DNA of 64,000 nucleotides, taken from the sequence record MH752840.1, one strand, 5' to 3'. Position 1 is the stretch's first letter. Every line of letters starts with the position of its first letter. Below the pieces are notes generated by a model, which worked only from the letters and a program-made list of their open reading frames with translations, did no database searches and was not told the DNA's origin. The DNA comes from Escherichia phage vB_EcoM-Pr121LW. Shown piece by piece: positions 12,141-27,775 of this stretch. The position numbers were made by a program, and so were the translations under genes.

Positions 12141-12179
12141 GCTACCTCCTACTTCTACCATCCCTGGTAAGATAAATTA

Positions 12180-12578: not shown

Positions 12579-12850
12579 AATCTAGGCTCCTTAAATGAAT
12601 CTATGTAATCAATTAAATCCCAAGCATCGCGATGGGCTGTCAGAGGGTATACTTCTCCGAGAGGGATCATAGCAATAAGTCTATCAAAAACCCAGTCTGG
12701 ACGCAACATTTTATGGTGATATTCCCACTCACCTTCCACAGATTTTTTCTGAGTGATCAGGATCTCTGTGTAGTGTTTCGCCTGTCTTGAGTAGATTGAA
12801 AATGACTTGTACATAAATGACCCCCTCTTGTTGAAAACAACAATACACAA
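12575..12850 (-). CDS. hypothetical protein
   Basis: ORF. Confidence 0.35.
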   Translation of the reverse strand: MCIVVFNKRGSFMYKSFSIYSRQAKHYTEILITQKKSVEGEWEYHHKMLRPDWVFDRLIAMIPLGEVYPLTAHRDAWDLIDYIDSFKEPRL

Positions 12851-13135
12851 CTACCAGGTTACTGTCAAGTAGGCAACCGTATTATTTTTCTCTGGGGAGA
12901 TGCCAACAACATCTACCTGCAGACCTCCTGCCCTTAAATCTCCAACAATGTGCGGGAAGTAATCTGAGAGATGCGAGGGTAGATTTATCGAAAATCCGCA
13001 CCCCAGAAAGCCTGCTAACGCTTTATTTTGTATCTCCCCTACAATCGCATCATAAATGGAGTTAAGCTCGTCAGGAAGCGTTACAGGACGTTTTAGCGCT
13101 AACTGGTGTAATTTGTCCTTAGCACTCATTTTCAT
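12851..13135 (-). CDS. hypothetical protein (start at MKMSAKDK)
   Basis: ORF. Confidence 0.3.
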   Translation of the reverse strand: MKMSAKDKLHQLALKRPVTLPDELNSIYDAIVGEIQNKALAGFLGCGFSINLPSHLSDYFPHIVGDLRAGGLQVDVVGISPEKNNTVAYLTVTW

Positions 13136-13665
13136 TTCAGGTCTACCTCTGGAGGTGCCAACCACATAAACGGCGGCAAGTCTAAACGGTTTTTCTTATC
13201 CCACACAAAATATGCATATGCTTGCCCGTCAGTTCTGCCATTTGATTGAAATGATGGACGCTTAGATATTGTGATCACAGTAGTAGGTGCATTATTAAGC
13301 CACCATTCAAATCTGGCTTTGCTTTCCAGAAAATTAAGACGTAAAAGCATAATAACTACGTCAGCATCTTTCAACGCCTTGTCTACGAACTCACGGGCCA
13401 GACTGTATGGTGGGTTGGTGATAATACAGTCAACATGGTTGTATTCTGTATTCAGATAGTCAACACCTTCTTGGATTTCTCCCCATGCAGATCCTAACGG
13501 CATACGGGAGTAGAACACACCTGAGGCACTATTCCTGCAAGGCTCTAAATAGGTCCAGTCCTCTGGGAACGGAATAAGGTCATACAGTCCTTCTGCACAC
13601 CACTCCGGTGTCACATACTCATCGTATGCGTTACGTTGTTCATCAGGTTTTCTAGCACAAGTCAT
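13132..13665 (-). CDS. DNA N6-adenine methyltransferase (small, NPPY class)
   Basis: IITNPPYS catalytic motif with upstream YVTPEW. Confidence 0.6.
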   Translation of the reverse strand: MTCARKPDEQRNAYDEYVTPEWCAEGLYDLIPFPEDWTYLEPCRNSASGVFYSRMPLGSAWGEIQEGVDYLNTEYNHVDCIITNPPYSLAREFVDKALKDADVVIMLLRLNFLESKARFEWWLNNAPTTVITISKRPSFQSNGRTDGQAYAYFVWDKKNRLDLPPFMWLAPPEVDLK

Positions 13666-13680
13666 GCAAATCTCCAGATC

Positions 13681-13703
13681 ATAAAAGCCCTCCGAAGAGG
13701 GCT
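13681..13703 (-). terminator. rho-independent terminator (minus strand) after ClpP-like gene
   Basis: GCCCTC-CGAA-GAGGGC hairpin followed on minus strand by TTTTAT. Confidence 0.55.
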
Positions 13704-13716
13704 TTAGAATTAATGT

Positions 13717-14766
13717 TTAAGCTTCTTCGACAATTCCTGCACCCAGGATTTTTTCATTGAGCTCTTTTGCTGTTTTAATGATATTGTCCATCAGACGCTT
13801 GCGGGTCTTGTCTTTCACCTTAACCTCTTCACCGCCGTTCAGAGTAGTCTTCAATTGAGACAGAATATCCTGAAGTTCGACGACAGAGAATCGCTGCAGA
13901 TCTTCTGAAGTAATTTCACCCAGGGCGATCCGGACGGTCTCACCACTTTCCATCTGCAGATTCAGGAACACAGTGTGAACATCGTCTTTCATACCATTTG
14001 CTTTTGCAGACTCAACAGCATGAACCAGCTCGTCCAGAGATGTGCATTGGTGAATCTCTGGCAGGCCTGCTTCGCCTAGCACACCTTCTTCATCACTTTT
14101 TGCCAAAAGCTTTTTCGGTTTCTGTCCATTCTGAATGCGCTGAATGTTTTCATCGTCCAGAATGATAGCACCAGTTCTAGATGCCAGCTCTTCTCCATCT
14201 AACCACACTTCACCGCCAGCTGTGATGGATGCGATCTCATCTTCTGTCAGCACCCCACCGTAGTATTTTTCGATCAGGCGTTCAAAACGTTTTTTCCAGT
14301 AGCTGACCTGAGTATTCATGTTCACACCGTTACCATAAGTGCCACCTTGATAGTAGTGGAACATAAATTCTGTGTCCGGAGCCACAGTACGTTCTTTGCA
14401 ACCAAGCCATAAGATTGTTCCAGCAGAGCAGCACATCCCTTCAGCATGTGCAACAACGCTTGCCTGAGACTCTCGGAATGCCTGCAGATAAGCCATTGCA
14501 ATGTGCACGCAACCCCCAGGGCTATTGATGATCACCCGAATGCTTTCTTCCGGCTGAGCCATACGGATCGTCTGCAGACGAGACATATGATCTTGTAAGT
14601 CTTCCAAATCGTCGATATAAAGAACGTGGTCAACAACAGGTGTTGGGTAGCTGTATGTTTCCATGATACCGCCCGGCATACCAAACATTTTATTACTCAT
14701 AGGTTCGAAACCGTTCTGTTTTTCTTTCATGCCGTGTACCATGGTGCTGCGAGGTGTTAAATTCAT
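13717..14766 (-). CDS. ClpP-like serine peptidase (S14 family) with ~150-aa C-terminal extension
   Basis: INSPGG oxyanion motif and GMCCSAG serine motif spaced as in ClpP; long acidic helical C-terminus. Confidence 0.6.
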   Translation of the reverse strand: MNLTPRSTMVHGMKEKQNGFEPMSNKMFGMPGGIMETYSYPTPVVDHVLYIDDLEDLQDHMSRLQTIRMAQPEESIRVIINSPGGCVHIAMAYLQAFRESQASVVAHAEGMCCSAGTILWLGCKERTVAPDTEFMFHYYQGGTYGNGVNMNTQVSYWKKRFERLIEKYYGGVLTEDEIASITAGGEVWLDGEELASRTGAIILDDENIQRIQNGQKPKKLLAKSDEEGVLGEAGLPEIHQCTSLDELVHAVESAKANGMKDDVHTVFLNLQMESGETVRIALGEITSEDLQRFSVVELQDILSQLKTTLNGGEEVKVKDKTRKRLMDNIIKTAKELNEKILGAGIVEEA

Positions 14767-14826
14767 GAGAAATCCTTAATATTGGAAGTTGAAAGCTATT
14801 TATTTAAACCTGATTCACATTTACCT

Positions 14827-15138
14827 TTATTTAGCAATCACTAGGGAATACTTACGATTGTCAGAAGCATCACAGCTCAATGATTGCCAGTCTACCACAT
14901 ACCACGTATCATTGTCAACAATTACTTTATCGCCTGTTCTGTAGCAGGTGCTGCTTTCAATAATCCGAGACTCGATAAAGAATCTGTGTCGGCGCTCACG
15001 TAGCAACGCTAAGTTGATTATATTACCACCGCTGTCCTTGATCCACACATTCTTGGATCCTTTATTTGCCAAAATTGTCTCTCCGTTATAGACAAACAGG
15101 CAGTATATTTTATTCAGTCTCTCTTGTATTGTAGCCAT
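14827..15138 (-). CDS. hypothetical protein
   Basis: ORF. Confidence 0.35.
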   Translation of the reverse strand: MATIQERLNKIYCLFVYNGETILANKGSKNVWIKDSGGNIINLALLRERRHRFFIESRIIESSTCYRTGDKVIVDNDTWYVVDWQSLSCDASDNRKYSLVIAK

Positions 15139-15168
15139 ACTATCTCCTTCTCCTTGTCTTGTCCGGTA

Positions 15169-15197
15169 ATAATATCTAAATCTTACCTGTTTGTCAA
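15169..15197 (-). promoter_or_regulatory. sigma70-like promoter (minus strand) TTGACA-17-TATTAT
   Basis: Reverse complement reads TTGACAaacaggtaagatttagaTATTAT upstream of 14827-15138. Confidence 0.45.
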
Positions 15198-15241
15198 CAA
15201 CTGTTTTAGATATCTAAGGGTGGAATAACCACCCTTCTGTA

Positions 15242-16030
15242 TTACTCGGAAACAGGGGTCCAAATATGATTTGCACGATCCTCAATAAGATTGAGTGCAA
15301 TCTGACGACCCAACCCGGAACGAACAACATCGTCTGGACTATCAAAGCTGATCATTCCAACCTCAGGATCTGGATGACGAGTAAAGAAATCCGTCACCCA
15401 TGCAAGGCCAGATTTACCAGGGATGTCACGTTGGCTATTATCGCCCATAATTACAAGGGTGGCCTGATCAGAGATCCTTGTGATAATTGACAACATTTCT
15501 TCAGGGTTAGTTTGCTGTGCCTCGTCAATCAGGACAAAGCATCGCTCATCGAAACTACGACCACGAATGCTTTCAACCTCACAAATCTCGATACGGCTGT
15601 TCTGACCGTCTCCCAGCATTGCGGCAAAAGCACCTTTGCCAACACGACGACAAATCGTGTCCATCATGCTTCGAAGATAGGGCCACAGTTTCTGCATTGC
15701 ATTTCCAGGTTTAAATCCTGAAGTCTTTCCTGTCTGAACGTAAGGACGTGCAACAATGATCTTATCAATCTCGTTCTTACGCAGAAGATCACCTGCATAG
15801 GCAGATGCCATGAATGTCTTACCAGATCCAAACACACCGTTTACAATGATAATCTTACGTGACCCTAGATAATCAAGATACTTTTGCTGCTTCTTATTCA
15901 TTGGTCGGAGAGCTGGAGCGGTGTGCTCTCTTTCGTCAGCAAATTTCTCAGCAGCCTTACGCAGGCGATCAGATTTGCGAGCCTCTCTAGCTTCATCACG
16001 CATGCGTTTTGTTTCTTTAGCTCGACCCAT
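15242..16030 (-). CDS. phoH: PhoH-like ATPase
   Basis: Walker A GVFGSGKTFMA and overall PhoH-like layout; basic N-terminus. Confidence 0.75.
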   Translation of the reverse strand: MGRAKETKRMRDEAREARKSDRLRKAAEKFADEREHTAPALRPMNKKQQKYLDYLGSRKIIIVNGVFGSGKTFMASAYAGDLLRKNEIDKIIVARPYVQTGKTSGFKPGNAMQKLWPYLRSMMDTICRRVGKGAFAAMLGDGQNSRIEICEVESIRGRSFDERCFVLIDEAQQTNPEEMLSIITRISDQATLVIMGDNSQRDIPGKSGLAWVTDFFTRHPDPEVGMISFDSPDDVVRSGLGRQIALNLIEDRANHIWTPVSE

Positions 16031-16067
16031 GTGGGACTCCTTTCAGATTGAGATGTGCCAAGTACTT

Positions 16068-16418
16068 TTACTGCAACAGTTTTTCAATAGCCGCTTCCAT
16101 GCTGCTTGCAACAGCCTGAACTCGGATATTCATCTCTTCTTGGTGGATCAGCTCCTTAAGCTCTTTAATGGTAAATTCTTTAGAGAAACCTTCCACCATA
16201 ATCTTGTGTAAGGCTTCTTGCGTGTCTACTTGCAAGAACTTTTCCAGTTTGTTGGCAGAGGCTTCTAAATCAGCCCGAATACGAGGGTCATCTGTGCGAT
16301 TCAGCATTAGGCGTAAGCCATCAAGATTAGTAGAAATAGCGTCTGCATGTTGAGTAACTAACCGTGGCAAAATGAGATCTACAAACTTATTAGCCAAATC
16401 GATACGTTCTTGTGTCAC
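16068..16418 (-). CDS. hypothetical protein (GTG start)
   Basis: ORF. Confidence 0.35.
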   Translation of the reverse strand: MTQERIDLANKFVDLILPRLVTQHADAISTNLDGLRLMLNRTDDPRIRADLEASANKLEKFLQVDTQEALHKIMVEGFSKEFTIKELKELIHQEEMNIRVQAVASSMEAAIEKLLQ

Positions 16419-16528
16419 TGTTGCACCCCCTCTTCATCCTCATGATGTTTCTTTTCCCGCTTGTGTTTTTTCTTAAGCTCAAGCGCAATTTCTTTTTTGT
16501 ACGCCTTCTTCAAGGCTTTTTTAGCCAT
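16415..16528 (-). CDS. small lysine-rich protein, 37 aa (MAKKALKKAYKKEIALELKKKHKREKKHHEDEEGVQQ)
   Basis: AGGAGG 6 nt upstream of ATG; stop overlaps GTG start of downstream gene (GTGA). Confidence 0.3.
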   Translation of the reverse strand: MAKKALKKAYKKEIALELKKKHKREKKHHEDEEGVQQ

Positions 16529-16592
16529 TTGGCACCTCCTCTGCTTTCATTTTACGATAATTATACCTATCTAAACAAAGCTTTGTCAACAG

Positions 16593-17066
16593 CTAGTCTA
16601 CCTGAACCCAACCGCCTGATACTTTTTTAAACATTCTTTGGTTATCACTGCCTCGGAACGGTTTCTTGGTTGGTAAATCTTTTACATACTTACCGTCAAT
16701 GATGATATCAGCCAGTTTAAGAACATCACTAGAGATATGGTCAAATGTGAACCCAGTATATACAAGAATAGTTTTCTTGTCACCAAATTTTTCCTTAATT
16801 TTCTCCATCAGGCTAATAATATCTGGCTCATTATAGTATGCTAAGGGTTCTCCACCCAGCAGAGAGATACCGCACACAGACGGGTTATCTAAATCTGACA
16901 AGATTTTTTGCAAGTCTTCTTCAGTAAACTCTCTCCCCTTATCTTTTGACCAAAATGCCTGATTAAAGCAACCAGGGCAAGCGTGTGGGCACCCAGATAC
17001 CCATAAGGCAGTTCTAATACCTGGCCCTTCGGTGTAAGATATTTCTGTGTATCCGACAATATTCAT
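16593..17066 (-). CDS. nrdG: anaerobic ribonucleotide reductase activating protein (radical SAM)
   Basis: CPHACPGC cysteine cluster near N-terminus; directly downstream of nrdD. Confidence 0.8.
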   Translation of the reverse strand: MNIVGYTEISYTEGPGIRTALWVSGCPHACPGCFNQAFWSKDKGREFTEEDLQKILSDLDNPSVCGISLLGGEPLAYYNEPDIISLMEKIKEKFGDKKTILVYTGFTFDHISSDVLKLADIIIDGKYVKDLPTKKPFRGSDNQRMFKKVSGGWVQVD

Positions 17067-17179
17067 AGATACTCCGCATCACATTCAGGGCAATGCCAAA
17101 TAAAATCGTCCAGTGCCTTGCACCAACGAAGATTGCAACGACAACCACACTTGCAAATTTTATAAATACCTGTAGACAT
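17063..17179 (-). CDS. small cysteine-rich protein, 38 aa (MSTGIYKICKCGCRCNLRWCKALDDFIWHCPECDAEYL), putative zinc ribbon
   Basis: GGAGG RBS; stop overlaps nrdG ATG (ATGA); 8 Cys in 38 aa; below the track length cut-off. Confidence 0.4.
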   Translation of the reverse strand: MSTGIYKICKCGCRCNLRWCKALDDFIWHCPECDAEYL

Positions 17180-17242
17180 ACTGTACCTCCTAGCTCACTG
17201 TGTGTCAATAATATGCCACATCCTTGTGGCTTTTGTCAAGTA

Positions 17243-19366
17243 TCAGCAACCACAACTTCCGTAGTGCTTAACCCGTTCTATAACTTCCGCTTGCTTACCT
17301 TTATTGTAAGGACGGGAGTTTGGACTAGACAGGTACCCGGATACACGTCTGATCACACTGATCGTTCCCTCTTCATGGTTTCCACACTCTGGGCATACAA
17401 AGCCTTTAGCTGTTGCACTGAACTCACCAGAAAAACCACACTTGAGACATTTATCCACAGGCTGGTTGATACCAAAATACATAATGTGTTTATATCCGAA
17501 ATCAACAAGAGCTTCCAAAGCATCTAAGTTGTTTTTCAGATTTGGTGTCTCTACGTATCCGATGTTGCCACCAGAGGAGATCATAGCAAAACCTTCCTCA
17601 TACTCCCACTTATCAAAAGGAGAGCTATTGATCCATACTGGCTGATGGAAACTGTTGGTGAGATATTCATGCTCGTGCTTCAACACTTCAGGATATTCAC
17701 GATCCAGACAGGTTGCAGCTTTATAGCATAGACTCTCAGAAGGGGTGCCGTACAAGCTAAACGCTAGTCTACTTTCCTTCTTGTATCGCTCACAAACATC
17801 TCTCATGTGCTGGAGTATTCCAAGAGCTAAAGCCTTGTCACCCTCCCTGCCCAAAATCTGACAGGTTTCATACACACCAATATACCCAATACTGATGGAA
17901 GCGTACCCGTCATAGAAGAGTTTATCAATACTCTCTTCAGGATCCAGGCGAGCAAGAGCGCCTTCACACCACATGATTGGGTTCTGCCCTGCCTTTGTTC
18001 CTTTTAGACGGTTAACCCTTACAAGGTGAGCCTCGTATGCAAGATCCAGGTATTCGTCAAGAACTGCAAAGAAATCAACACCTTCCGTTTTAGCTTTTGC
18101 CGCAATCATTGGCAGGTTAAGGCTAACAACGCCTAAGTTAAATCTACCAAGGTATTTCTCCTCGCCTGTTTCCAAGTCATTGTATTTGCTAAGAAAACTC
18201 CGGCAACCCATGCTCGTTACTTTACCATCTGTCGAGCCTGTCACTTTACGATTTAGTGGAACAGAAACAAAGTCAGGATAAATCCGCTCTGCAGAGCATT
18301 CCAGAGCTAATCGTTTCAAATCATAGTTAGGATCTCCAGGGTTCATGTTGACACCCTCTTCTAGGAAGAACAGCACTTTAGGGAACACAGGTGTGATACG
18401 TTCTTCACCAAGACCCATTTTGTGGACTTTCAAGTAGTTTTTGGTAATCATTCTACCAAAGACCGAGGTATCCAGTCCTAAACTTAATGTGATGAATGGA
18501 GTTTGCCCGTTGACAGAGGTTAACGTATTGATTTGATAGAGCAAAGTCTGCATGCTGTCAAATACGTCTTTATCTGTCATTTGCATTGCAACAGTCTCAG
18601 CATCTGGCAACCAATGTTCCTGGCAAAATTTAAGGTTCTTCTCATAGGTTGCTTCAGCATACTGTGCCAGATAATGATCAATATGGCTCATAGTCTGACC
18701 TCCATATTGAGCACTAGCTACTGCACTAGAGATTTGGCTAAGGATTGTTGTTGCAACCCCTATTGACTTCGGCTTACTGACATGGGCGTTGCCAATGTTG
18801 AATCCGTTTTCCAACATATCTGGATAATTTACCAAACAACAGTTTGTTAACGGACTGATCAAGTAGTCAAGATCATGCACATGGATGAAGCCTTTATTGT
18901 GCTCTTCTGAGACACGGTCTGGCAGGATCTGTGTTGATGCAAGGTGTTTGCTAAGGATGCCTGCAAGCAGGTCACGATGAGTGTGTACATGATTGGTAGG
19001 CTTATTTGCGTTTTCTTTTGTAAATTCATCACAAGTGCGATCCAAGAAGCCACTAATATCTGCAAGCAGTTTTCCACCTGCCTCTCTGTTATTATCTCTT
19101 GTCTGCCTATACTGGATGTATTCTCTGGCTGCGCATTTTAAACCCATATCCATAAGAGCGTCTTCAACAAGGATATGGATATTTTTTACAGAGATCGTGC
19201 ACTGGTCGGTTGGTAGATTGTTAGCAACAACTTCATTAACCGCGCAGGCGATCCGGTAAGCTTCTTCTTCAGTATGTCCAGACTCAAGTAAGGCGGACTC
19301 TGCCGCCTTGATCACCTTAATTCCGTTATAGACCTCTTCTCTACCGTCCCGTTTTACAACTTTCAC
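17243..19366 (-). CDS. nrdD: anaerobic ribonucleoside-triphosphate reductase (class III)
   Basis: 707 aa; C-terminal glycyl-radical region RRVSGYL and C-terminal Cys cluster. Confidence 0.9.
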   Translation of the reverse strand: MKVVKRDGREEVYNGIKVIKAAESALLESGHTEEEAYRIACAVNEVVANNLPTDQCTISVKNIHILVEDALMDMGLKCAAREYIQYRQTRDNNREAGGKLLADISGFLDRTCDEFTKENANKPTNHVHTHRDLLAGILSKHLASTQILPDRVSEEHNKGFIHVHDLDYLISPLTNCCLVNYPDMLENGFNIGNAHVSKPKSIGVATTILSQISSAVASAQYGGQTMSHIDHYLAQYAEATYEKNLKFCQEHWLPDAETVAMQMTDKDVFDSMQTLLYQINTLTSVNGQTPFITLSLGLDTSVFGRMITKNYLKVHKMGLGEERITPVFPKVLFFLEEGVNMNPGDPNYDLKRLALECSAERIYPDFVSVPLNRKVTGSTDGKVTSMGCRSFLSKYNDLETGEEKYLGRFNLGVVSLNLPMIAAKAKTEGVDFFAVLDEYLDLAYEAHLVRVNRLKGTKAGQNPIMWCEGALARLDPEESIDKLFYDGYASISIGYIGVYETCQILGREGDKALALGILQHMRDVCERYKKESRLAFSLYGTPSESLCYKAATCLDREYPEVLKHEHEYLTNSFHQPVWINSSPFDKWEYEEGFAMISSGGNIGYVETPNLKNNLDALEALVDFGYKHIMYFGINQPVDKCLKCGFSGEFSATAKGFVCPECGNHEEGTISVIRRVSGYLSSPNSRPYNKGKQAEVIERVKHYGSCGC

Positions 19367-19641
19367 TTTTTCTCTCCAAAACCATTCTTAACAAAAGAGA
19401 TGAAATCGTCGGCACCACCTACATGGACACTATCAAGATCGCTTTCTAAGAAGATCTGCGGTAACGTTCTTGGGACGATTGGACTACACTTCTCAATAAG
19501 CTCTTCTTTTGTGTATCCCTCTCCAAGTGTCTTATATACAAAAGGCAGACCTTTACTGACTGCAAATTCTTTTGCTCTTACACAATGTGGGCAGTTATCT
19601 TTACCGTAAATAATAAAGAAAAAAGATTTTTCACAGCTCAT
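19363..19641 (-). CDS. glutaredoxin/NrdH-like redoxin
   Basis: CPHC active-site motif in a ~90-aa protein between nrdB and nrdD. Confidence 0.7.
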   Translation of the reverse strand: MSCEKSFFFIIYGKDNCPHCVRAKEFAVSKGLPFVYKTLGEGYTKEELIEKCSPIVPRTLPQIFLESDLDSVHVGGADDFISFVKNGFGEKK

Positions 19642-19644
19642 ATA

Positions 19645-20733: not shown

Positions 20734-20744
20734 TATTCTACCTC

Positions 20745-20766
20745 TAAGACAGGGGCCGAAGCCCCT
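20745..20766 (-). other. nrdA-nrdB intergenic hairpin without U-tract
   Basis: AGGGGC-CGAA-GCCCCT stem-loop; on the minus strand it is followed by GTCTTAG, not a U-run. Confidence 0.35.
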
Positions 20767-20772
20767 TTAAAA

Positions 20773-23088
20773 TTACAGTGCACAGCTTTCGCAATACGGA
20801 TCTTCAACTGAACTATCTGCAATCAAAGGATAGTTCTTTCTGGTTTCATCTTCAGCCTGTTTCTTGGCATGAAGTTCCTCTGCCAAGGAGTCACCAGCAC
20901 CAACCCTGGAGTTTAAATAATACCATGTCTTCATCCCGAATTTAGTGGCACGGATAAGGTACCCTAGCTGCTCCTTCATTGAAATTTTACCATCTTTCAA
21001 CTTGGTGTAGTCTATGTATAAATCCGCGCTGATTGCCTGGCCTGTGAATTTTTGAATCACAGCATACATATCGATCATGTCGTTAGTATCAACGTCCCAA
21101 GCCGAAGTGTAATACTCTTTCAGCTCATCGTATTCAGGAACGATAAACAGCACCTGCCCTTGTGGCGACTTTTTAAAGATAATGTGCTCACGGACAGGAT
21201 AAACCCCGTTAGTGGTGTTTGTTGCCAGCGAAGAGCTTTCATTAGGCATATATGCTTCAAGAACGCTATTACGTAGCCCACCATTTTCAATGATTTCTTT
21301 ACGTAACCCTTCCCAATCCTGTTTAAGAGAAGGATCTTTCACCACGCTATCGACCTCTTTGTTATAGGTGTCGATTGGTAACCAACCTTCTGGATATTTT
21401 GTTTTATGCATCCACTCGCAGACACCACGCTCTTTTGCCAACCGTAAACTTGCCTTATGCAAGCTGTAGCTGTGAAGTTCTGCAAGATCGTGAACGAGCT
21501 GTTTACTTTCAGGAGATCCGTAAGTAACCTTGTGGCTGGCAATAAAATGTGCAACATTGGTAAGGCCAACCCCGATGGATCTGCGTTTTTTAACTGTGCT
21601 TTCCATATTTTCATACGGATATGTCATGATTTCCATAACATTGTCAATCATAAGCACCGTGTAGTATGCAACATCCTCATACTCCTCTGGAGTAACCCTT
21701 CCAGCTACAAGGGATGACAGGAAGCACAATGCAACCTCTCCATCATCAGCATCGTACTTGAAGATATTACGCATATCTGAATAGCCTTTTGTCGGGAGGG
21801 CTATTTCTGCACACAGGTTACTTGAATAGATCACATCTTTAAAAGGTGTATGTCTATTCATCTCATCTGTCCAGTATACATACAGCCTACCCACCTCAGT
21901 ACGCTGCGTGATCAGTTCAACAGCAAGATCTCTGGCTCGGATCCATGTTTTAGGAATACTGTCATCTTTAGCAATACGATCAACCTCTGCATCAAACTCC
22001 TCCATAGACATGGTGAAGATACCCTCATGCAGTTGAGGAGCGTGCTTATAAGAAACAAGAATCCAATCTAAATTCTTAGCCACACGGTTGATAAACGACC
22101 TATTAATACCGATGGAATAGTCCATGGTGTTGATTCTTTTTGAAGCAACAGTCATAGGGTTTCTCAAACGGATTAGCTCATCAATCTGCGGGTCCAGTGC
22201 AAGGAATGATACTGTTGCAGAACCGCCACGTGATTGTTGTCTGTTCTCCTTAACACCAGCATCAATACCTCGATAATACGGAATCTTACCCATATGTTTA
22301 ATAGTGTTACCACGAACACCATCGCCTGCAGATCTTGAGGATAAGTAGTAGCCGATGCCTGCTTGGTTAACCGTCATCGTGTACGCAACTTCACGTGCCA
22401 CACCAATAGATTTTGCTGTATCGTCAGCTTTTATTACACAACAAGATGCATACCCTGTCTTACCTGTGCGCAGCCCGTTTAAGTACGGTGTCGGAGCATT
22501 GATCTTTAAGTCGGACAGATAATTGTATAGTTTTACAACATCGTCGATACGACGTTCTTTCGGCATATTCTTCATGACAGCCATTGCTATCCCCATAAAC
22601 ATCATCTGGGGAGATTCAAACAGGGTGTCTTTAAGAGTATCCTTGATCCCGTATTTGTCGCGAAACTGTTTAAGGACTGCATAGCCGTAACCGAGATCTT
22701 TACTGTGGTCAATAACAGCGCCTAAAGTATTTAGCTCGGTAAAGCTATAACCCATATCCTCCCAATACCCTTTCTCAACCATGGTATTGTAAAATGATGG
22801 TAATGAAGGGATCTTTGTAAACCCTCCAAAAGCCTCTTTATAAATCTGACCAATAAGAACACGACCAGCCATACGGGAATGTGCTTCGTCTTTACGGCTA
22901 ACACAGGAGTCTATGATAGCTTGGTTAACTTCTTTGGTCGTACATCCATCATACAGTCGTTTGTATGCATCCAGTGCAATGTGTGACCAATTGCCGTTAC
23001 CGTCGTCACCGAAAATAGCTGCCTTATTTAAACGTTCTGGATCGAATGCCACTTCACATCCGTTGCTTTTAATTACCTTGGTGATCAA
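20773..23088 (-). CDS. nrdA: ribonucleotide reductase class I alpha subunit
   Basis: 771 aa; active-site SSNLCAEI motif; N-terminal ATP-cone-like region. Confidence 0.9.
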   Translation of the reverse strand: MITKVIKSNGCEVAFDPERLNKAAIFGDDGNGNWSHIALDAYKRLYDGCTTKEVNQAIIDSCVSRKDEAHSRMAGRVLIGQIYKEAFGGFTKIPSLPSFYNTMVEKGYWEDMGYSFTELNTLGAVIDHSKDLGYGYAVLKQFRDKYGIKDTLKDTLFESPQMMFMGIAMAVMKNMPKERRIDDVVKLYNYLSDLKINAPTPYLNGLRTGKTGYASCCVIKADDTAKSIGVAREVAYTMTVNQAGIGYYLSSRSAGDGVRGNTIKHMGKIPYYRGIDAGVKENRQQSRGGSATVSFLALDPQIDELIRLRNPMTVASKRINTMDYSIGINRSFINRVAKNLDWILVSYKHAPQLHEGIFTMSMEEFDAEVDRIAKDDSIPKTWIRARDLAVELITQRTEVGRLYVYWTDEMNRHTPFKDVIYSSNLCAEIALPTKGYSDMRNIFKYDADDGEVALCFLSSLVAGRVTPEEYEDVAYYTVLMIDNVMEIMTYPYENMESTVKKRRSIGVGLTNVAHFIASHKVTYGSPESKQLVHDLAELHSYSLHKASLRLAKERGVCEWMHKTKYPEGWLPIDTYNKEVDSVVKDPSLKQDWEGLRKEIIENGGLRNSVLEAYMPNESSSLATNTTNGVYPVREHIIFKKSPQGQVLFIVPEYDELKEYYTSAWDVDTNDMIDMYAVIQKFTGQAISADLYIDYTKLKDGKISMKEQLGYLIRATKFGMKTWYYLNSRVGAGDSLAEELHAKKQAEDETRKNYPLIADSSVEDPYCESCAL

Positions 23089-23336
23089 TTTGCTTCCTCC
23101 ACTTCATTAACGTATTTATCAAGGCAGGTATCAGTATCTTGCTGGATAAAGGTATCCTCTTCTACAGAGATATTTATAATTTTACCTGTATACTCGTCAT
23201 AATAAACATCATCATACATTTTAATATCGTTTGTCAGACCGTTGAACCAAAGCCAACCAACATACTCTGCCCGACTTGCAAAACCAAGATCCTTCCACTT
23301 GGAGCTATGACTCATCTTCACCACCTTAGCTTTCAA
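23085..23336 (-). CDS. hypothetical protein
   Basis: ORF, 4-nt overlap with nrdA. Confidence 0.35.
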   Translation of the reverse strand: MKAKVVKMSHSSKWKDLGFASRAEYVGWLWFNGLTNDIKMYDDVYYDEYTGKIINISVEEDTFIQQDTDTCLDKYVNEVEEAN

Positions 23337-23826
23337 TACCGAATAATTTTTCTAGGCGATGCAGATCTTCAAAATTGAAAGGTTCATCAACAATATGAAT
23401 ATCTTCAGCCTTTTCAGATTGTTTTGTATACTTTCTTACATTAACACGATCTTCTACTGGGATATCATACGGAAGATCTTGAACAAGCATTGCCTCACCA
23501 GGTGCTTTATCTACATCTAAAATATCTACACCGTTATACATTTGTGGGTATCTAAAGTCTGCACGCATGACACCAGCAAATACATCTGCCTTTCGATAAT
23601 GGGTTGGCTTATTTTTGCATCGAACGTTTTTTCCACGGAGAACATCAATATTTTTTAAATCAAAGCCTACGGCGAAGAGTGCAGCTCGGAGACCGTTTCG
23701 TGTGCGAACGTTAAACCCAGGTACTGTAGATAGGAAATCTAAAGTAACTGAAATAAATGTCTTTTTAGGAATCATAACATTACTCATATCTGTCTCCATT
23801 TCTGGCTCACCAACAAAGTGAGCCAT
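23326..23826 (-). CDS. hypothetical protein
   Basis: ORF; no recognisable motif. Confidence 0.35.
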   Translation of the reverse strand: MAHFVGEPEMETDMSNVMIPKKTFISVTLDFLSTVPGFNVRTRNGLRAALFAVGFDLKNIDVLRGKNVRCKNKPTHYRKADVFAGVMRADFRYPQMYNGVDILDVDKAPGEAMLVQDLPYDIPVEDRVNVRKYTKQSEKAEDIHIVDEPFNFEDLHRLEKLFGIES

Positions 23827-23885
23827 TATTATAGATTATCTGATAATATTAGTCAACACAAAAGTTACCTATCGCTGTGATAGGA

Positions 23886-24869
23886 TTAACCTTTCACGAA
23901 GTGGTTATTAAGCAGTTGTCTGTGCTGAACCCACCCACAAAAGTTGGCAGACCAGAATTTACCATCACGGTCTTGATGGGTTACACCTTCCTGCCAAACA
24001 CAGCTGTCTTGTGTGATTTCACATGAAGATAGATAGTAGTTTAAACGTTCCATTGCGTTATCGTGATCCATAGGTGTTGCTTGGTGCTCGTAAGGGCTTG
24101 CATGAATACGATCCCCACCAATCAATTTTTTAGCCACACTGTCTGCCTTTTCAAACGTGCTGTCAATATTTCGATAAGATACTTGTGCACAGCAACTAGC
24201 ACTAATAGACAGAGCTTCTCCAGTATCGAGAATGCAAAGCTTTCCTTCTGTGTCACGTACAGCATAGTTAAACTCGCCGTCCAAATAAACGTGCTCTACA
24301 TATGGTGTGTGCCATTGACCAGGTTTAAGGATTTCAGGAGTGCTATTCATAAGAGCATCCCACATGCAATTAGCCAACATCTGAATAGTAGGGTCCGCAT
24401 CGTGCCAGCAACGGAGATGGAAGAAATTATTCCACTCTGTGCTTGTTACAACTGTTTTCATGCGCTGAAACGGCTCCACTAAGCGGTTACATACTTGCTT
24501 ATGGTAACCCGCAAGGGCGAACTTCTCTGCATGCCAAGCTGCGTTTTTTGCAGCTTCTTTCCAAAACTCTTCAGGAGTTAACTCCATGTCAGTGTACTCT
24601 ACACGGATCTTTTGATCGTGTTCTCCACCATCTTCCATCCCCCGCTTATTTACACCGAAGCGGACGGGCATTGCCGGATTCTCCACAATCTGTTGCAGCA
24701 TCTTGCCGACAGGCACTGCACGGGAAGACATGGCGTTTCGGCTGAACACTCGGTGCGTCATAAGCTCTGAGTGAATAATTCGAGGATACTCCAGCTCAAA
24801 AGTGGTGATACGCTTACCTTTCTCGGAAATGCTGTCAGCAATGATCTTTGCAGTGCACAGTTTTAGCAT
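23886..24869 (-). CDS. thyX: flavin-dependent thymidylate synthase (ThyX)-like
   Basis: THRVFSRNAMSSRA resembles the ThyX RHRxxSxNxxSxR signature; length suits a ThyX homolog. Confidence 0.55.
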   Translation of the reverse strand: MLKLCTAKIIADSISEKGKRITTFELEYPRIIHSELMTHRVFSRNAMSSRAVPVGKMLQQIVENPAMPVRFGVNKRGMEDGGEHDQKIRVEYTDMELTPEEFWKEAAKNAAWHAEKFALAGYHKQVCNRLVEPFQRMKTVVTSTEWNNFFHLRCWHDADPTIQMLANCMWDALMNSTPEILKPGQWHTPYVEHVYLDGEFNYAVRDTEGKLCILDTGEALSISASCCAQVSYRNIDSTFEKADSVAKKLIGGDRIHASPYEHQATPMDHDNAMERLNYYLSSCEITQDSCVWQEGVTHQDRDGKFWSANFCGWVQHRQLLNNHFVKG

Positions 24870-25069
24870 TATTTAGCTCTCCTTGTTTTAATTTTGGAAA
24901 TTTCGTCTGGGCTTATGTTAGCCTTAAATGCAAGGTATCTGTTAAACATATCAGAGCACATGTCTTGGGTGATCCTGGAGGCATACACTAGCTTGCCCCC
25001 CAGATCATATACCTCCAGCCAGTCACCGTATCTGACTACAGGATCGCCACCTTTAGAACATCTGCCCAT
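24869..25069 (-). CDS. hypothetical small protein
   Basis: ORF. Confidence 0.3.
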   Translation of the reverse strand: MGRCSKGGDPVVRYGDWLEVYDLGGKLVYASRITQDMCSDMFNRYLAFKANISPDEISKIKTRRAK

Positions 25070-25070
25070 T

Positions 25071-25664
25071 TCAAATACCTTCTAAAAACTTCCCTATTTT
25101 ATACCAGCTATTAGCGGTATAGTCAACACTGACCTTTAACTCCTCGAATTGCTCATAAGGTGTGTCTTTTAGGATTTTAATAACTTCAGGTCGTGAAGCG
25201 AATTGGTTCAGGTATTCATGCCTGTCGTCAATTATAACATCTACAGCCACATTACCTTTGAAATGTGTGGCGTAGAAGCCGTGACCCTGGGTGTGATCAT
25301 CCAGATCCATAAAATCACTGGTCCAACGCTTTAAGAACCTTGATTTAGATGCCAGGTGACCTTTCTTGCATACCGAGATAAATGCGAGCTTGTGACCGCG
25401 AGCCACCAAATCTTTCATAACCTCAATAGCCCCCTCTTCAGGCTTAAGAAAGTCGTAGAGGAACGGATCACTCCAGAAATCAAAAGGTCCTATGATGTTT
25501 TCTTTGGGGCGATCAGGCCAATACTTTGACAGATCGTAATACATCAGCCCATTAGAAGGTTTAACGACTGTCTTACTGGCTGGACCATACAAACGCTCCA
25601 ACCACTCCCACCATGCTGTTCCTGAATCTACCAGTGTCAAATCTACATCAATTCCGATTAACAT
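25071..25664 (-). CDS. HAD-superfamily hydrolase, likely 5'(3')-deoxyribonucleotidase
   Basis: N-terminal IGIDVDLTL (DxDxT) motif. Confidence 0.5.
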   Translation of the reverse strand: MLIGIDVDLTLVDSGTAWWEWLERLYGPASKTVVKPSNGLMYYDLSKYWPDRPKENIIGPFDFWSDPFLYDFLKPEEGAIEVMKDLVARGHKLAFISVCKKGHLASKSRFLKRWTSDFMDLDDHTQGHGFYATHFKGNVAVDVIIDDRHEYLNQFASRPEVIKILKDTPYEQFEELKVSVDYTANSWYKIGKFLEGI

Positions 25665-26275
25665 TCTTCTTGGGCCTCTTTAGCATCAATATACTTGCAC
25701 ACAATCTCCGATGCACATTCCCAAGGTGCACCTTCAGGATTTACAACATCGAACTCAATCCCTTTTATTCCGTTATTTTCCAGACTTAGATAGGTTCTGG
25801 AATCATTTCCCCAGTCATATCCGACACGGTGAATACGGAACAACAACAGATCTCCACCTGTGCTGTATGCGTACTCACTAAGGCATGCCAGCTCCTCTTT
25901 GAATCCACCATCGGAGTAAACAACAACCCCTTTACCTTTAGGGAAATCTTTCTTCAAGGATGTGACTGCGGCCTTACCGAAAGCATCTTCACCAAAGATA
26001 GGTTTAATCAGATTTTCACTACAATGGATCATCCACTCTCGCGGAGAAACATGCTTGCCGTCTATCATTAAGAAAGGGCAAGGATCTTCTTTGTAGTGGC
26101 GGTCATAAAGTGCATTCCAGAGTTGAGGAGTTACACCAGCTGCCTTAATTGCCACACTGAAGAGCATCTCCTTAACCTCACGGTGGTGTGAGTTAGGAAT
26201 AGCTTCCAACAAGAGATCTGCAATGTGATCCTTACCACTGCTGGGTGGGGCGTTAAGAACAATAATATCCATCAA
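25658..26275 (-). CDS. P-loop nucleotide kinase, dNMP kinase-like
   Basis: N-terminal IVLNAPPSSGKDHIADLL resembles the phage dNMP kinase P-loop. Confidence 0.45.
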   Translation of the reverse strand: MMDIIVLNAPPSSGKDHIADLLLEAIPNSHHREVKEMLFSVAIKAAGVTPQLWNALYDRHYKEDPCPFLMIDGKHVSPREWMIHCSENLIKPIFGEDAFGKAAVTSLKKDFPKGKGVVVYSDGGFKEELACLSEYAYSTGGDLLLFRIHRVGYDWGNDSRTYLSLENNGIKGIEFDVVNPEGAPWECASEIVCKYIDAKEAQEEC

Positions 26276-26475
26276 AAACCTCCGTGGTATTCTTCAACTG
26301 CATCAATAATACTTTTACACTTATCTACTAGCTCGTTAGCCACTACAGCATCGTCTTCCCAAACAGCTTCCTCAATCTGATCAAGCAATGATCGCATCTT
26401 ACCCATCATTTCTGGGATAAAGTTTTCTGAAAAGCTGTCTGGAATTGTTAACTTTAGTGTCATTGTAGTCTCCAA
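26272..26475 (-). CDS. hypothetical small acidic protein
   Basis: ORF. Confidence 0.3.
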   Translation of the reverse strand: METTMTLKLTIPDSFSENFIPEMMGKMRSLLDQIEEAVWEDDAVVANELVDKCKSIIDAVEEYHGGF

Positions 26476-26490
26476 TCATACTATGCGTTA

Positions 26491-26949
26491 TTAGAAGTTT
26501 GTTTTTACACGTCCCTTTTCATCAACTTCGTTGTTAGCTAAAAGCGTTACAAAGTCTGTGAAACGGACATGAAGAACTCTTTTCTTATCAAGGTATCCTA
26601 AAGCCACCCCTGAGAAATTTAGCATCAAAGGGGCTAAAGAAGCTCTAGCGCTGAAATGCTGTTGCTCTACCCTTCCAACACCCTTAGTATAGGATGGGTT
26701 GAGATTGTAAGTTCTGAATCCAAGTTTTGTTGGGGCTTTAGAATTAAAAACAACTTTGTAGCGTTTCTTACTCAACTTATGCTCCAGGATAAGCATTCCC
26801 TTATCACCTTTGATAAGTTGAAAATCTGTAAAGTGCTCTTTTAAGACGAAAGGTAGTGCCAGTCCCATCGCCTGGCCTCTTTGTACCGCTGTCTCACCAA
26901 AAGCTTTTGCATCAGTAAGTTCTTTTGTCAAGTCTATGCTTTTGATCAT
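26491..26949 (-). CDS. hypothetical protein
   Basis: ORF. Confidence 0.35.
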   Translation of the reverse strand: MIKSIDLTKELTDAKAFGETAVQRGQAMGLALPFVLKEHFTDFQLIKGDKGMLILEHKLSKKRYKVVFNSKAPTKLGFRTYNLNPSYTKGVGRVEQQHFSARASLAPLMLNFSGVALGYLDKKRVLHVRFTDFVTLLANNEVDEKGRVKTNF

Positions 26950-27730
26950 ACCAGGTCTCCAAAATGTATTGTAGTTCTTTCTTGCCTATACTCTTCATTC
27001 CAGCAGTCTTACCTGCTTCTTCTTGAAAAGAAGAATAGCATTCAGCAAACACTCTGTCAACACCGTCAACTAAAGATTTTATGAAATACGTAGATTCTTC
27101 AGATTTTGGATCATCATCACCCAATACTTTTCCAGCGTTATACCCAACACGTCTTACACAGAAGTCGTAGTCATCCGGTGTGCTAAAAGAAAATAACTTA
27201 TTCTCTCCAATCTCTACAGGATCCCTATTGCACGCCTTTTTCTCCCAAATTTGGAAAACACATGGCACGTCGTAAGGTTTGCCATTAAGTAAAAACGAGT
27301 TCTTAGGGCACCTTTCGCTGTAGACAAGGTGCATAGACATGTCCAGTTTGTTTGCAAAAAATATTTTTTCAAATGTCCGTGGCAAGATGAAGGCTATAGC
27401 CCCGCCAAGCTCTAGCAATGATGCACAATGGTTAAAGAATTTGCAAGCTAAAGATGAATTCTTGCCAAATGGTGGGTTACCTATGAAGACATCTGCCTTA
27501 GGATGCACCTCCAAGAAGTTTGCCTGAATGCACTGTGTTGGTCCTTCAAATTCAGGATCTGGTACTAGATCGTACGACAGTATCTCTGAAAATAGTTTTG
27601 AAAAAGAACCCCTTCCAGCAGAAGGCTCAACGTATGCACAATTCCCATACTTGTCTTTTACTTTACCAACAAGATATTCTGCATACTTAGGGTTTGTGTA
27701 ATATTTGTCGTTGGACTCTTTCTTGCTCAA
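26912..27730 (-). CDS. DNA N6-adenine methyltransferase (probable TTG start; track ORF to 27760)
   Basis: EPSAGRGSF (SAM-binding motif I) and IGNPPF (motif IV); GGAGG 4 nt before TTG. Confidence 0.6.
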   Translation of the reverse strand: MSKKESNDKYYTNPKYAEYLVGKVKDKYGNCAYVEPSAGRGSFSKLFSEILSYDLVPDPEFEGPTQCIQANFLEVHPKADVFIGNPPFGKNSSLACKFFNHCASLLELGGAIAFILPRTFEKIFFANKLDMSMHLVYSERCPKNSFLLNGKPYDVPCVFQIWEKKACNRDPVEIGENKLFSFSTPDDYDFCVRRVGYNAGKVLGDDDPKSEESTYFIKSLVDGVDRVFAECYSSFQEEAGKTAGMKSIGKKELQYILETWYDQKHRLDKRTY

Positions 27731-27739
27731 AGTGCCTCC

Positions 27740-27767
27740 AAAAGGAAAAGGGAGGCGCAAGCCTCCC
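27740..27767 (-). terminator. rho-independent terminator (minus strand)
   Basis: GGGAGGC-GCAA-GCCTCCC hairpin followed on minus strand by TTTTCCTTTT. Confidence 0.5.
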
Positions 27768-27775
27768 TATAATTG

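What the first reader, a model, noticed from the sequence alone, without database searches (positions are those of the whole stretch)
13132..27730. Two separate N6-adenine DNA methyltransferases
Genes at 13132-13665 (TNPPY) and 26912-27730 (EPSAGRGSF, NPPF) both carry amino-methyltransferase signatures but differ in size and motif order, implying different target specificities. This would give broad anti-restriction protection.
Basis: partly seen in the sequence, partly recalled or inferred. Interest (0 to 1): 0.35.

Follow-up and report, generated by a model that had tools for sequence, protein, structure and literature searches.

The report
Two orphan phage adenine DNA methylases
This rV5-like E. 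coli phage does carry two adenine DNA methylase genes, one Dam-like (GATC, shown by experiment in a near-identical phage) and one related to the chlorella-virus GTAC methylase M.CviQI, but both are already annotated, share one motif order, and protect only narrowly against restriction.

Summary
Both genes are real, on the minus strand, at the stated coordinates. The window is a Vequintavirus (rV5-like, 97-98% identical to known phages), and public records already call both genes "putative N6 adenine methyltransferase".

- **Gene 1 (177 aa, TNPPY):** 175/177 identical to the Bas51 enzyme. Published T83P, D69G and D79G mutants of that enzyme abolish retron triggering, and T83P was shown to remove GATC m6A from phage DNA. 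It is a Dam-like GATC methylase.
- **Gene 2 (272 aa, EPSAGRGSF, NPPF):** I recovered M.CviQI (GTm6AC) from chlorella virus NY-2A using its published PCR primers. Gene 2 is a full-length homologue of it (35% identity, E 2e-39).
- **Bas51 methylome:** 509-511 of 516 GTAC adenines are methylated, and this does not depend on gene 1. Gene 2 is therefore very probably the GTAC methylase. This is an inference.

The claim that the two proteins differ in motif order is wrong. Their families align collinearly (hhalign 97.9%). The claim of broad anti-restriction protection is contradicted, because BASEL phenotyping found Vequintavirinae exceptionally susceptible to restriction-modification systems. Any protection is limited to enzymes that target GATC or GTAC.

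The finding is ordinary and largely already known.

The parts
13132..13665 (-). Gene 1: 177-aa single-domain Dam-like orphan N6-adenine DNA methyltransferase (target GATC)
   Evidence: ORF. PHROG 799 'DNA methyltransferase', E 1e-66. 175/177 identical to bas51_0176, which has the D69, D79 and T83 residues named in PMC12548924. AlphaFold model pLDDT 90, one Rossmann-type domain.
13405..13419 (-). Codons for T83-N84-P85-P86-Y87 (catalytic motif IV) of gene 1
   Evidence: Translation check. N84, P85 and P86 are invariant in 52 homologues. T83P removes GATC methylation in Bas51.
13537..13545 (-). Codons for E41-P42-C43 (motif I region, predicted SAM-binding loop) of gene 1
   Evidence: E41 and P42 are at least 90% conserved.
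13459..13461 (-). Codon for D69 of gene 1 (conserved acidic residue; the role in SAM ribose binding is inferred)
   Evidence: At least 90% conserved. D69G is a retron-escape mutation in Bas51.
13684..13705 (-). Hairpin AAAGCCCTC-TTCG-GAGGGCTTT between the ClpP-like gene and gene 1, followed by the GGAG ribosome-binding site (13672-13675) and the ATG (13663-13665)
   Evidence: Read directly from the sequence. The pattern scan did not flag it because the T tail is short.
26912..27730 (-). Gene 2: 272-aa M.CviQI-family orphan N6-adenine DNA methyltransferase (inferred target GTAC), TTG start
27602..27628 (-). Codons for E35-PSAGRGS-F43 (motif I) of gene 2
   Evidence: E35, P36, G39, G41 and F43 are invariant in 53 homologues.
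27467..27478 (-). Codons for N85-P-P-F88 (motif IV) of gene 2
   Evidence: G84-N-P-P-F-G89 is invariant. NPPF is present in all 120 listed homologues.
27749..27768 (-). Terminator-like hairpin (8 pairs, 6 G-C, then TTTCCTTTTG) after the DnaQ-like exonuclease gene. The GGAGG ribosome-binding site (27735-27739) lies just downstream of it, in the 5' leader of gene 2
12851..13135 (-). 94-aa ORF whose ATG overlaps the stop codon of gene 1 (ATGA), so it is probably translationally coupled. Function unknown
   Evidence: PHROG 12158, unknown function. Annotated as hypothetical in MaxBurger.
26491..26949 (-). 152-aa ORF overlapping the 3' end of gene 2 by 38 nt. It is not a restriction-enzyme partner
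   Evidence: PHROG 9938, unknown function. hhalign against the R.CviQI-like partner family gives probability 3.8%.

Best explanation
The window comes from an rV5-like Vequintavirus. It encodes two distantly related, SAM-dependent, orphan N6-adenine DNA methyltransferases with no linked nuclease. Both share the layout Y-x-T(P), motif I (EPxxGxG), an acidic residue, then motif IV (NPPY/F). Gene 1 (177 aa) is a minimal catalytic domain with no separate DNA-recognition domain, and it methylates the adenine of GATC on both strands of replicating phage DNA. This activity was shown by experiment in a 99%-identical orthologue. Gene 2 (272 aa) adds a compact C-terminal recognition domain and belongs to the family of the chlorella-virus enzyme M.CviQI. 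By inference it methylates GTAC to GTm6AC. If both enzymes act as in Bas51, all 355 GATC and 104 GTAC sites of this window would be modified. The likely benefit is immunity to the specific restriction enzymes blocked by Gm6ATC (MboI/DpnII type) and GTm6AC (RsaI, CviQI, PabI/HpyAXII type). It is not general anti-restriction. The Dam-like enzyme also has a cost, because it triggers abortive-infection retrons.
For: Identity of the phage and existing annotation of both genes.

Gene 1:
- PMC12548924 reports Bas51 escape mutations D69G, D79G and T83P in 'the N6 adenine methyltransferase'.
- m6A site counts in that paper are GATC 1405, GTAC 509, other 576 for wild type, and 35, 511, 349 for T83P.
- Only bas51_0176 has D, D and T at positions 69, 79 and 83, and it is 175/177 identical to window gene 1.
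- Bas51 has 703 GATC and 258 GTAC sites, i.e. 1406 and 516 adenines, so both motifs are about 99-100% methylated.

Gene 2:
- The printed M.CviQI primers hit a 368,683-bp viral contig. The only ORF of at least 100 aa that lies wholly within the amplicon (269 aa) is 35% identical to gene 2 over its full length, E 2e-39.
- The convergent neighbour of that ORF belongs to the roughly 210-aa family found immediately downstream of gene-2 homologues in 22-23 of 80 bacterial loci (hhalign 99.6%). This is a restriction-modification-type cassette.
- Burkholderia and Paraburkholderia homologues are fused to an Eco57I-type DNA methyltransferase module.
- The C-terminal domain has many invariant columns across phage, giant-virus-like and bacterial members.
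- The other adenine methyltransferase of Bas51 (bas51_0070) is a beta-class type III Mod-like enzyme. Such enzymes typically mark one strand of asymmetric sites, which fits the 'other' class better than a fully methylated palindrome.
- GTAC is the most depleted of all 256 tetranucleotides in the window (O/E 0.52), whereas GATC is neutral (1.01).
Against: - No experiment has been done on this phage.
- Nobody has genetically tied gene 2 to GTAC. The retron paper does not discuss the GTAC signal.
- 35% identity does not guarantee the same specificity.
- Relatives, and probably this phage outside the window, carry a third adenine methyltransferase that could in principle be the GTAC enzyme.
- Neither protein reaches any curated Pfam or NCBIfam threshold.
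- The biological benefit is inferred. The Bas51 methyltransferase mutants plated as well as wild type on K-12 without retrons.
Confidence: 0.8

Rival explanations
1. The GTAC methylation seen in Vequintaviruses is made by the third, type III Mod-like methyltransferase (bas51_0070, outside this window). Gene 2 methylates some other DNA motif hidden in the 'other' class.
For: Bas51 encodes three putative adenine methyltransferases. 349-576 methylated adenines fall outside GATC and GTAC. No genetic assignment exists for GTAC.
Against: Gene 2 is a full-length homologue of M.CviQI, a GTm6AC enzyme. Its bacterial relatives pair with homologues of the M.CviQI neighbour gene. bas51_0070 is beta-class and closest to EcoP15I-type Mod subunits, which normally mark asymmetric sites on one strand. 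About 350 sites fits a 5-bp asymmetric motif in 141 kb, where about 275 are expected.
Confidence: 0.1
2. Gene 2 is an RNA (rRNA or tRNA) m6A methyltransferase of the METTL5 / COG2263 type, not a DNA enzyme.
Against: Those matches cover only about 150 residues of the Rossmann core, whereas DNA methyltransferases align over 229-251 residues. Gene 2 is homologous to the DNA enzyme M.CviQI. Relatives occur in restriction-modification-like cassettes and in fusions with Eco57I-type DNA methyltransferases.
Confidence: 0.03
3. One reading: the two enzymes together give broad protection against host restriction.
For: Two methylation specificities are present, and methylation is a classic anti-restriction device.
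Against: BASEL phenotyping found Vequintavirinae 'exceptionally susceptible' to type I, II and III RM systems, and the BASEL Vequintaviruses checked here (Bas50-54) carry both genes. Bas51 has 21 GAATTC, 52 GATATC and 225 AGACC/GGTCT sites that neither motif covers.
Confidence: 0.05
4. The main role of one or both methylases is not defence against restriction. Instead they control the phage's own DNA transactions, for example by keeping fast-replicating DNA fully Dam-methylated to avoid MutH nicking, or by marking DNA for packaging or replication as in P1.
For: The host already has Dam, yet without the phage enzyme only 35 of 1406 GATC adenines pass the methylation threshold, so host Dam cannot keep up. 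GATC is not avoided in the genome (O/E 1.0). Both genes sit among nucleotide-metabolism and replication genes.
Against: The Bas51 D69G, D79G and T83P mutants plate normally on K-12. GTAC is strongly avoided (O/E 0.52), which looks like the signature of restriction pressure.
Confidence: 0.25

Closest known systems
Bas51 (Escherichia phage WalterGehring, MZ501111) N6 adenine methyltransferase bas51_0176, the trigger of retrons Asa1 and Squ1 (Nakamura et al., PLoS Biol 2025, PMC12548924)
   Same: 175/177 residues identical to gene 1, same genomic position just downstream of the ClpP-like gene, and the same D69, D79 and T83-NPPY residues. Shown by experiment to make Gm6ATC on phage DNA.
   Different: Two substitutions (N124D, V174A). 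No experiment exists on the phage in this window.
Small phage Dam family (Pfam PF05869, TIGR01712: T1, VT2/933W and HP1 Dam; the named members are recalled from my own knowledge)
   Same: About 160-180 aa single domain without a separate recognition domain, an N-terminal TP motif, a (D/E)PC motif, then NPPY. GATC specificity.
   Different: Gene 1 scores below both curated cut-offs (18.9 against 28.1 bits, and 16 against 97 bits). A more distant homologue, P0083, reaches 25.1 bits. It is at best a sister family (PHROG 799).
E. coli Dam and T4 Dam (alpha-class; class assignment from my own knowledge)
   Same: Same product, Gm6ATC.
   Different: Different permutation class and size, with no detectable sequence match here. 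The shared specificity is convergent.
M.CviQI of chlorella virus NY-2A (GTm6AC; used in PMC4357717)
   Same: Similar length (269 against 272 aa), collinear, 35% identity, E 2e-39. Shares the DK(F/Y)YT, EPSAGxGSF, GNPPFGKN, YDVPCVFQIW, RRVG and TAGxxSIxKxEL motifs.
   Different: In NY-2A the gene sits convergent to a homologue of the roughly 210-aa partner family, presumably R.CviQI. The phage copy has no such partner. The specificity of the phage copy is inferred, not measured.
M.HpyAXII (H. pylori) and M.PabI (P. abyssi), GTm6AC methyltransferases of the restriction-glycosylase systems (PMC2588503, PMC4357717)
   Same: Same modification. M.HpyAXII is a compact gamma-type enzyme threaded on M.TaqI with its motif IV asparagine at residue 87. 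Gene 2 has N85.
   Different: Their partner nucleases are PabI half-pipe glycosylases, whereas the partner family found here has no PDB sequence match.
M.TaqI, M.BseCI, CamA and MmeI (gamma-class N6-adenine DNA methyltransferases)
   Different: Gene 2 is about 110-480 residues shorter. Gene 1 lacks the recognition domain entirely. Identity is only 14-20%.

Membership tests
Small phage Dam family (Pfam PF05869 Dam; NCBIfam TIGR01712 phage_N6A_met) - gene 1 | Score at or above the curated family threshold | tested here: not met
   PF05869: 18.9 bits against a 28.1 cut-off. TIGR01712: 16 bits against 97.05.
Small phage Dam family - gene 1 | Single catalytic domain of about 160-180 aa with no separate target-recognition domain, with N-terminal TP and (D/E)PC motifs before NPPY | tested here: met
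   177 aa. Y17-x-T19-P20, E41-P42-C43, T83-NPPY. The model is one alpha/beta domain, pLDDT 90.
Small phage Dam family - gene 1 | Methylates adenine of GATC in DNA | tested here: met
   The activity comes from the published Bas51 experiment (GATC m6A 1405 falling to 35 in T83P). Tested here: orthology (175/177 identical; D69, D79 and T83 are unique to this gene), and that 1405 equals 99.9% of the 1406 GATC adenines.
Gamma-class (M.TaqI-like) N6-adenine DNA methyltransferases - both genes | Motif order X, I, (II/III), IV ... followed by a C-terminal recognition domain | tested here: met
Gamma-class Pfam models (PF07669 Eco57I, PF02384 N6_Mtase) | Score at or above the gathering threshold | tested here: not met
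   Gene 2: Eco57I 16 bits against 25.3. Gene 1: 13.3 bits. Some homologues carry a precomputed PF26055 hit. That model is absent from the local Pfam copy, so its identity could not be checked.
M.CviQI family (GTm6AC) - gene 2 | Full-length sequence homology to M.CviQI | tested here: met
   35% identity, residues 8-260 against 2-260, E 2e-39. The M.CviQI ORF was located with the published primers.
M.CviQI family - gene 2 | GTAC adenines N6-methylated in DNA of an organism carrying the gene | tested here: inconclusive
   Bas51 (gene 2 orthologue 267/272 identical) has 509-511 of 516 GTAC adenines methylated independently of gene 1. The signal has not been genetically assigned, and a third adenine methyltransferase exists.
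M.CviQI-type restriction-modification system - gene 2 | Adjacent cognate nuclease gene (homologue of the M.CviQI neighbour) | tested here: not met
   The partner profile A3 finds nothing in the window at E up to 10, and the downstream ORF is unrelated. The partner is present next to 22-23 of 80 bacterial homologues. The phage gene is an orphan.
METTL5 / COG2263 rRNA m6A methyltransferases - gene 2 | Core-only methyltransferase of about 200 aa, closest in sequence and structure to METTL5, acting on RNA | tested here: inconclusive
   Literature phenotype: Vequintavirinae are 'exceptionally susceptible' (PMC8594841), and the BASEL Vequintaviruses checked here (Bas50-54) carry both genes. EcoRI, EcoRV and EcoP1 sites are abundant and are not covered by GATC or GTAC methylation.

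The most novel reading that the evidence does not exclude
Gene 2 and its more than 700 relatives form an uncurated family of compact GTAC-specific adenine methylases (PHROG 5172 'unknown function', no NCBIfam model, no model in the Pfam copy searched). The family spans coliphages, giant-virus-like contigs and many bacteria. In about 30% of bacterial loci it pairs with an equally unannotated roughly 210-aa protein family that is homologous to the neighbour of M.CviQI, i.e. a widespread CviQI-type G^TAC restriction system. The phage both depletes GTAC (the most avoided tetranucleotide) and methylates what remains. That would mean GTAC-directed restriction is a major, under-appreciated pressure on enterobacterial phages.
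Probability: 0.5. Interest if true: 0.35.

Novelty: already known. Interest (0 to 1): 0.18.

Why it matters
The importance is modest.

- **Defence triggering.** For anyone using rV5-like phages in typing, biocontrol or therapy, DNA of the close relative Bas51 is fully m6A-modified at GATC and GTAC, and this phage very probably is too. The Dam-like enzyme is a known trigger of retron abortive-infection systems, so it affects host range in both directions.
- **Practical handling of the DNA.** The modification also predicts restriction patterns: resistance to MboI/DpnII and RsaI, and sensitivity to DpnI. It matters for nanopore base-calling.
- **What is new here.** The small new piece is the link between gene 2, M.CviQI and an unannotated bacterial partner family. 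This gives a testable specificity for a PHROG of 'unknown function' and a candidate family of GTAC restriction enzymes.

Tried and rejected
- **Curated family libraries.** Pfam and NCBIfam scans of both proteins gave only sub-threshold hits. PF26055 is listed for some gene-2 homologues, but it is not in the local Pfam copy and appears in no paper. I left it unnamed.
- **PDB sequence searches.** Single-sequence searches found nothing useful. The profile search of the partner family against PDB also found nothing, so a PabI-type glycosylase relationship could not be shown.
- **Structure searches.** Foldseek against PDB recovered only generic Rossmann-type methyltransferase matches and did not separate DNA from RNA enzymes. 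The afdb50 library was unavailable.
- **Literature.** The rV5 genome paper does not mention methylation or restriction. Searches for Vequintavirus with 6mA, GTAC with phage, BASEL with methylome, and RsaI with rV5 gave nothing beyond the retron paper. The M.PabI paper is not held.
- **Naming the partner family.** All 106 homologues are 'hypothetical', there is no plasmid hit, and there is no Pfam or NCBIfam hit. A plasmid search with gene 2 gave no informative names.
- **Downstream ORF as a hidden nuclease.** The 152-aa ORF downstream of gene 2 was tested against the partner family and rejected.
- **Longer start for gene 2.** The 282-aa ORF starting at 27760 was rejected because it begins inside a terminator hairpin.
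- **Large contigs with gene-2 homologues.** Two contigs (L003, L004) look giant-virus-like but gave no functional clue.

Full report
**What the window is.** Positions 12000-28000 are 97-98% identical to more than 100 rV5-like coliphages of the genus Vequintavirus, including MiataMamis, JES2013, Murica and the BASEL phage MaxBurger (Bas54). Gene 2 is 100% identical at the DNA level to phage Murica. The whole window maps collinearly onto BASEL phage Bas51 (WalterGehring, MZ501111), from coordinate 94,958 to the end of the record and then from 1 to 20,971.

**Checking the observation.** Both ORFs exist on the minus strand.
- Gene 1 is 13132-13665 (177 aa). It has an ATG start, a GGAG ribosome-binding site, and a hairpin at 13684-13705 just upstream.
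- Gene 2 is 26912-27730 (272 aa). It has a TTG start and a GGAGG ribosome-binding site.
- The quoted motifs are present: TNPPY, EPSAGRGSF and NPPF.
- These are the only two ORFs in the window with an amino-methyltransferase motif IV. Each family's HMM finds only these two genes.
- NPP(Y/F) is present in all 240 listed homologues.
- Against Bas51, synonymous codon changes far outnumber non-synonymous ones: 26 to 2 for gene 1, and 16 to 5 for gene 2.

So the genes are real and under purifying selection.

**The motif-order claim is wrong.** Both proteins run Y-x-T(P), then EPxxGxG, then a conserved acidic residue, then NPP(Y/F). A profile-profile comparison of the two families gives 97.9% probability (E 3.6e-13) over 143 collinear columns. 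They are distant paralogues of one architecture. Gene 2 simply has about 100 extra C-terminal residues.

**Already annotated.** rV5 itself (NC_011041), JES2013, Murica and the BASEL phages annotate gene 2 as a (putative) DNA N6-adenine methyltransferase. MaxBurger and WalterGehring annotate both genes that way. A Danish phage survey also notes methyltransferases in all vequintaviruses.

**Gene 1 is a Dam-like GATC methylase.**
- Curated models give only sub-threshold hits to the small phage Dam family and to EcoRI methylase. PHROG 799 'DNA methyltransferase' matches at E 1e-66.
- The AlphaFold model (pLDDT 90) is a single Rossmann-type domain. The family profile hits M.TaqI at E 1e-5.
- The decisive evidence is published. 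Nakamura et al. 2025 (PMC12548924) selected Bas51 escapers of retrons Asa1 and Squ1. [quoted passage not shown] Rebuilt D69G, D79G and T83P mutants lost retron triggering.
- Native nanopore sequencing in that paper gave m6A site counts of GATC 1405, GTAC 509 and other 576 in wild type, against 35, 511 and 349 in T83P.
- I fetched Bas51. Of its three putative adenine methyltransferases and one Dcm-like gene, only bas51_0176 has D69, D79 and T83. It is 175/177 identical to window gene 1.
- Bas51 has 703 GATC sites, which is 1406 adenines. The published 1405 therefore amounts to complete methylation.

**Gene 2 belongs to the M.CviQI family, so its target is probably GTAC.**
- PHROG 5172 ('unknown function') matches at E 2e-129. 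No curated model reaches threshold.
- The model (pLDDT 93) has a Rossmann core plus a C-terminal domain.
- Bas51 has 258 GTAC sites, which is 516 adenines. Of these, 509-511 are methylated whether or not gene 1 is active. E. coli K-12 has no GTAC methylase (my own knowledge: Dam, Dcm, EcoKI, silent YhdJ), so a phage enzyme must do it.
- To test gene 2 as that enzyme, I took the M.CviQI PCR primers printed in PMC4357717 and searched the viral contig collection. Both primers hit a 368,683-bp contig. That is the size of the NY-2A genome as I recall it.
- The only ORF of at least 100 aa that lies wholly within the amplicon (269 aa) is 35% identical to gene 2 over its full length (E 2e-39). It shares every family signature. 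M.CviQI makes GTm6AC.

**Independent support from genomic context.**
- In Poseidonibacter, in several Paracoccaceae/Rhodobacteraceae genome bins and in other bacteria, gene-2 homologues are followed by a roughly 210-aa gene, usually with overlapping stop and start codons. Some cassettes are flanked by IS1595 transposases.
- These partner proteins are homologous across phyla. They carry a D...S-I-K pattern that resembles some PD-(D/E)XK nucleases; this nuclease reading is my inference.
- The partner lies downstream in 22-23 of 80 bacterial loci.
- The gene convergent to M.CviQI in NY-2A belongs to this same family (hhalign 99.6%, E 1e-24). It is presumably R.CviQI.
- In Burkholderia and Paraburkholderia the gene-2-like domain is fused to an Eco57I-type DNA methyltransferase module.
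- The family is therefore a restriction-modification-type DNA methyltransferase family, and the phage copy is an orphan.

**The remaining rival for GTAC.** Bas51's third adenine methyltransferase (bas51_0070, outside this window) is a beta-class, type III Mod-like enzyme. It fits the roughly 350-576 'other' sites better than a fully methylated palindrome. I put gene 2 = GTAC at about 85% given these data, and the overall explanation at 0.8.

**Function.**
- The 'broad anti-restriction' reading fails. Maffei et al. 2021 (PMC8594841) found Vequintavirinae 'exceptionally susceptible' to RM systems and seeming 'to lack any effective protection', and the BASEL Vequintaviruses checked here (Bas50-54) carry both genes.
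- Bas51 has 21 EcoRI, 52 EcoRV and 225 EcoP1 sites that neither methylation motif covers.
- Protection can extend only to enzymes blocked by Gm6ATC or GTm6AC. For GTm6AC these include RsaI, CviQI, and the PabI/HpyAXII restriction glycosylases.
- GTAC is the most depleted of all 256 tetranucleotides in the window (O/E 0.52) and the second most depleted in Bas51 (0.59). GATC is neutral. This suggests real GTAC-directed pressure.
- The Dam-like enzyme also carries a cost, because it triggers retrons and is toxic when over-expressed. A role in the phage's own DNA metabolism cannot be excluded.

**Verdict.** This is an ordinary finding and largely already known. Gene 1 has been characterised by experiment in an orthologue, and gene 2 is annotated as a putative methyltransferase.

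Noticed in passing
window 11380-11904 (-): Orthologue (92% aa identity) of the Bas51 'putative glycosidase' bas51_0171. Its R87* mutation abolishes defence by retron Asa1 (PMC12548924). It lies five genes downstream of gene 1 on the same strand. It has no Pfam hit and matches PHROG 13467 (unknown function), so the 'glycosidase' label has no support in the Pfam and PHROG scans run here.
   Followed up: partly
whole window; Bas51 genome (L011 + L012 + L010): GTAC is the most under-represented of all 256 tetranucleotides in the window (104 observed, 202 expected, O/E 0.52) even though it is apparently fully methylated. GATC is neutral (O/E 1.01). Nine GC-rich 6-bp palindromes, including TGGCCA, GCTAGC and GGCGCC, are absent altogether.
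   Followed up: partly
Bas51 L012:14456-15781 and L012:17042-17806 (outside the window): Vequintaviruses carry two more methyltransferase genes between the helicase and primase genes. One is a 441-aa beta-class, type III Mod-like adenine methyltransferase (PF01555, DPPF at residue 73). The other is a 254-aa 'Dcm-like' protein (PHROG 757, no Pfam hit). The 349-576 'other' m6A sites in Bas51 are unassigned.
   Followed up: partly
L013:5805-6404, L015:5000-5650, L018:3501-4142, L101:2967-3863 and 22-23 of loci L020-L099: An unannotated roughly 210-aa protein family (all 'hypothetical', no Pfam, NCBIfam or PDB match) sits immediately downstream of gene-2-like methylases in diverse bacteria, and convergent to M.CviQI in chlorella virus NY-2A. 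It is probably the R.CviQI (G^TAC) nuclease family. Invariant residues include D41, K57 and N-x-K-x-D-S-x-x-Q-R-R-x-Q-C-S.
   Followed up: partly
L088:2938-6444 (Burkholderia anthina), L093:2953-5427 (Paraburkholderia sp.): The gene-2-like domain appears fused in one long ORF to an Eco57I / N6_Mtase-type module. These genomes are high in GC, so the true ORF boundaries are uncertain.
   Followed up: partly
L003, L004 (contigs of 230-250 kb carrying P0177 and P0172): Gene-2 homologues occur on very large contigs full of unannotated genes, with ankyrin, ART-PolyVal, patatin and RCC1 domains. These look like giant viruses or jumbo phages, which fits the chlorella-virus member of the family.
   Followed up: no
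window 16704-17211, 18506/18507 and 44922-44941, against Bas51: The window lacks three insertions present in Bas51: a roughly 1.9-kb block with a homing endonuclease upstream of nrdD, the 0.8-kb intron plus homing endonuclease inside nrdD (also present in MaxBurger), and the insertion in the large terminase gene. nrdD (17243-19366) is uninterrupted here.
   Followed up: partly
search hits: 21 GenBank records named 'Campylobacter phage' (MG0656xx, unannotated) are about 97% identical to this E. coli rV5-like sequence. They are probably mislabelled or contaminant assemblies. A 137.6-kb E. coli 'plasmid' record (CP057073.1) carries a 97.8%-identical copy of gene 2 and, at that size, may be a phage genome of this type.
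   Followed up: no
window 25071-25664 (-) and 25658-26275 (-): Between thyX and gene 2 lie a 5'-deoxynucleotidase-like protein (PF06941 NT5C, 27 bits) and a gene annotated as P-loop NTPase or dNMP kinase that has no Pfam hit. This is ordinary nucleotide metabolism with no sign of a hypermodification pathway.
   Followed up: partly
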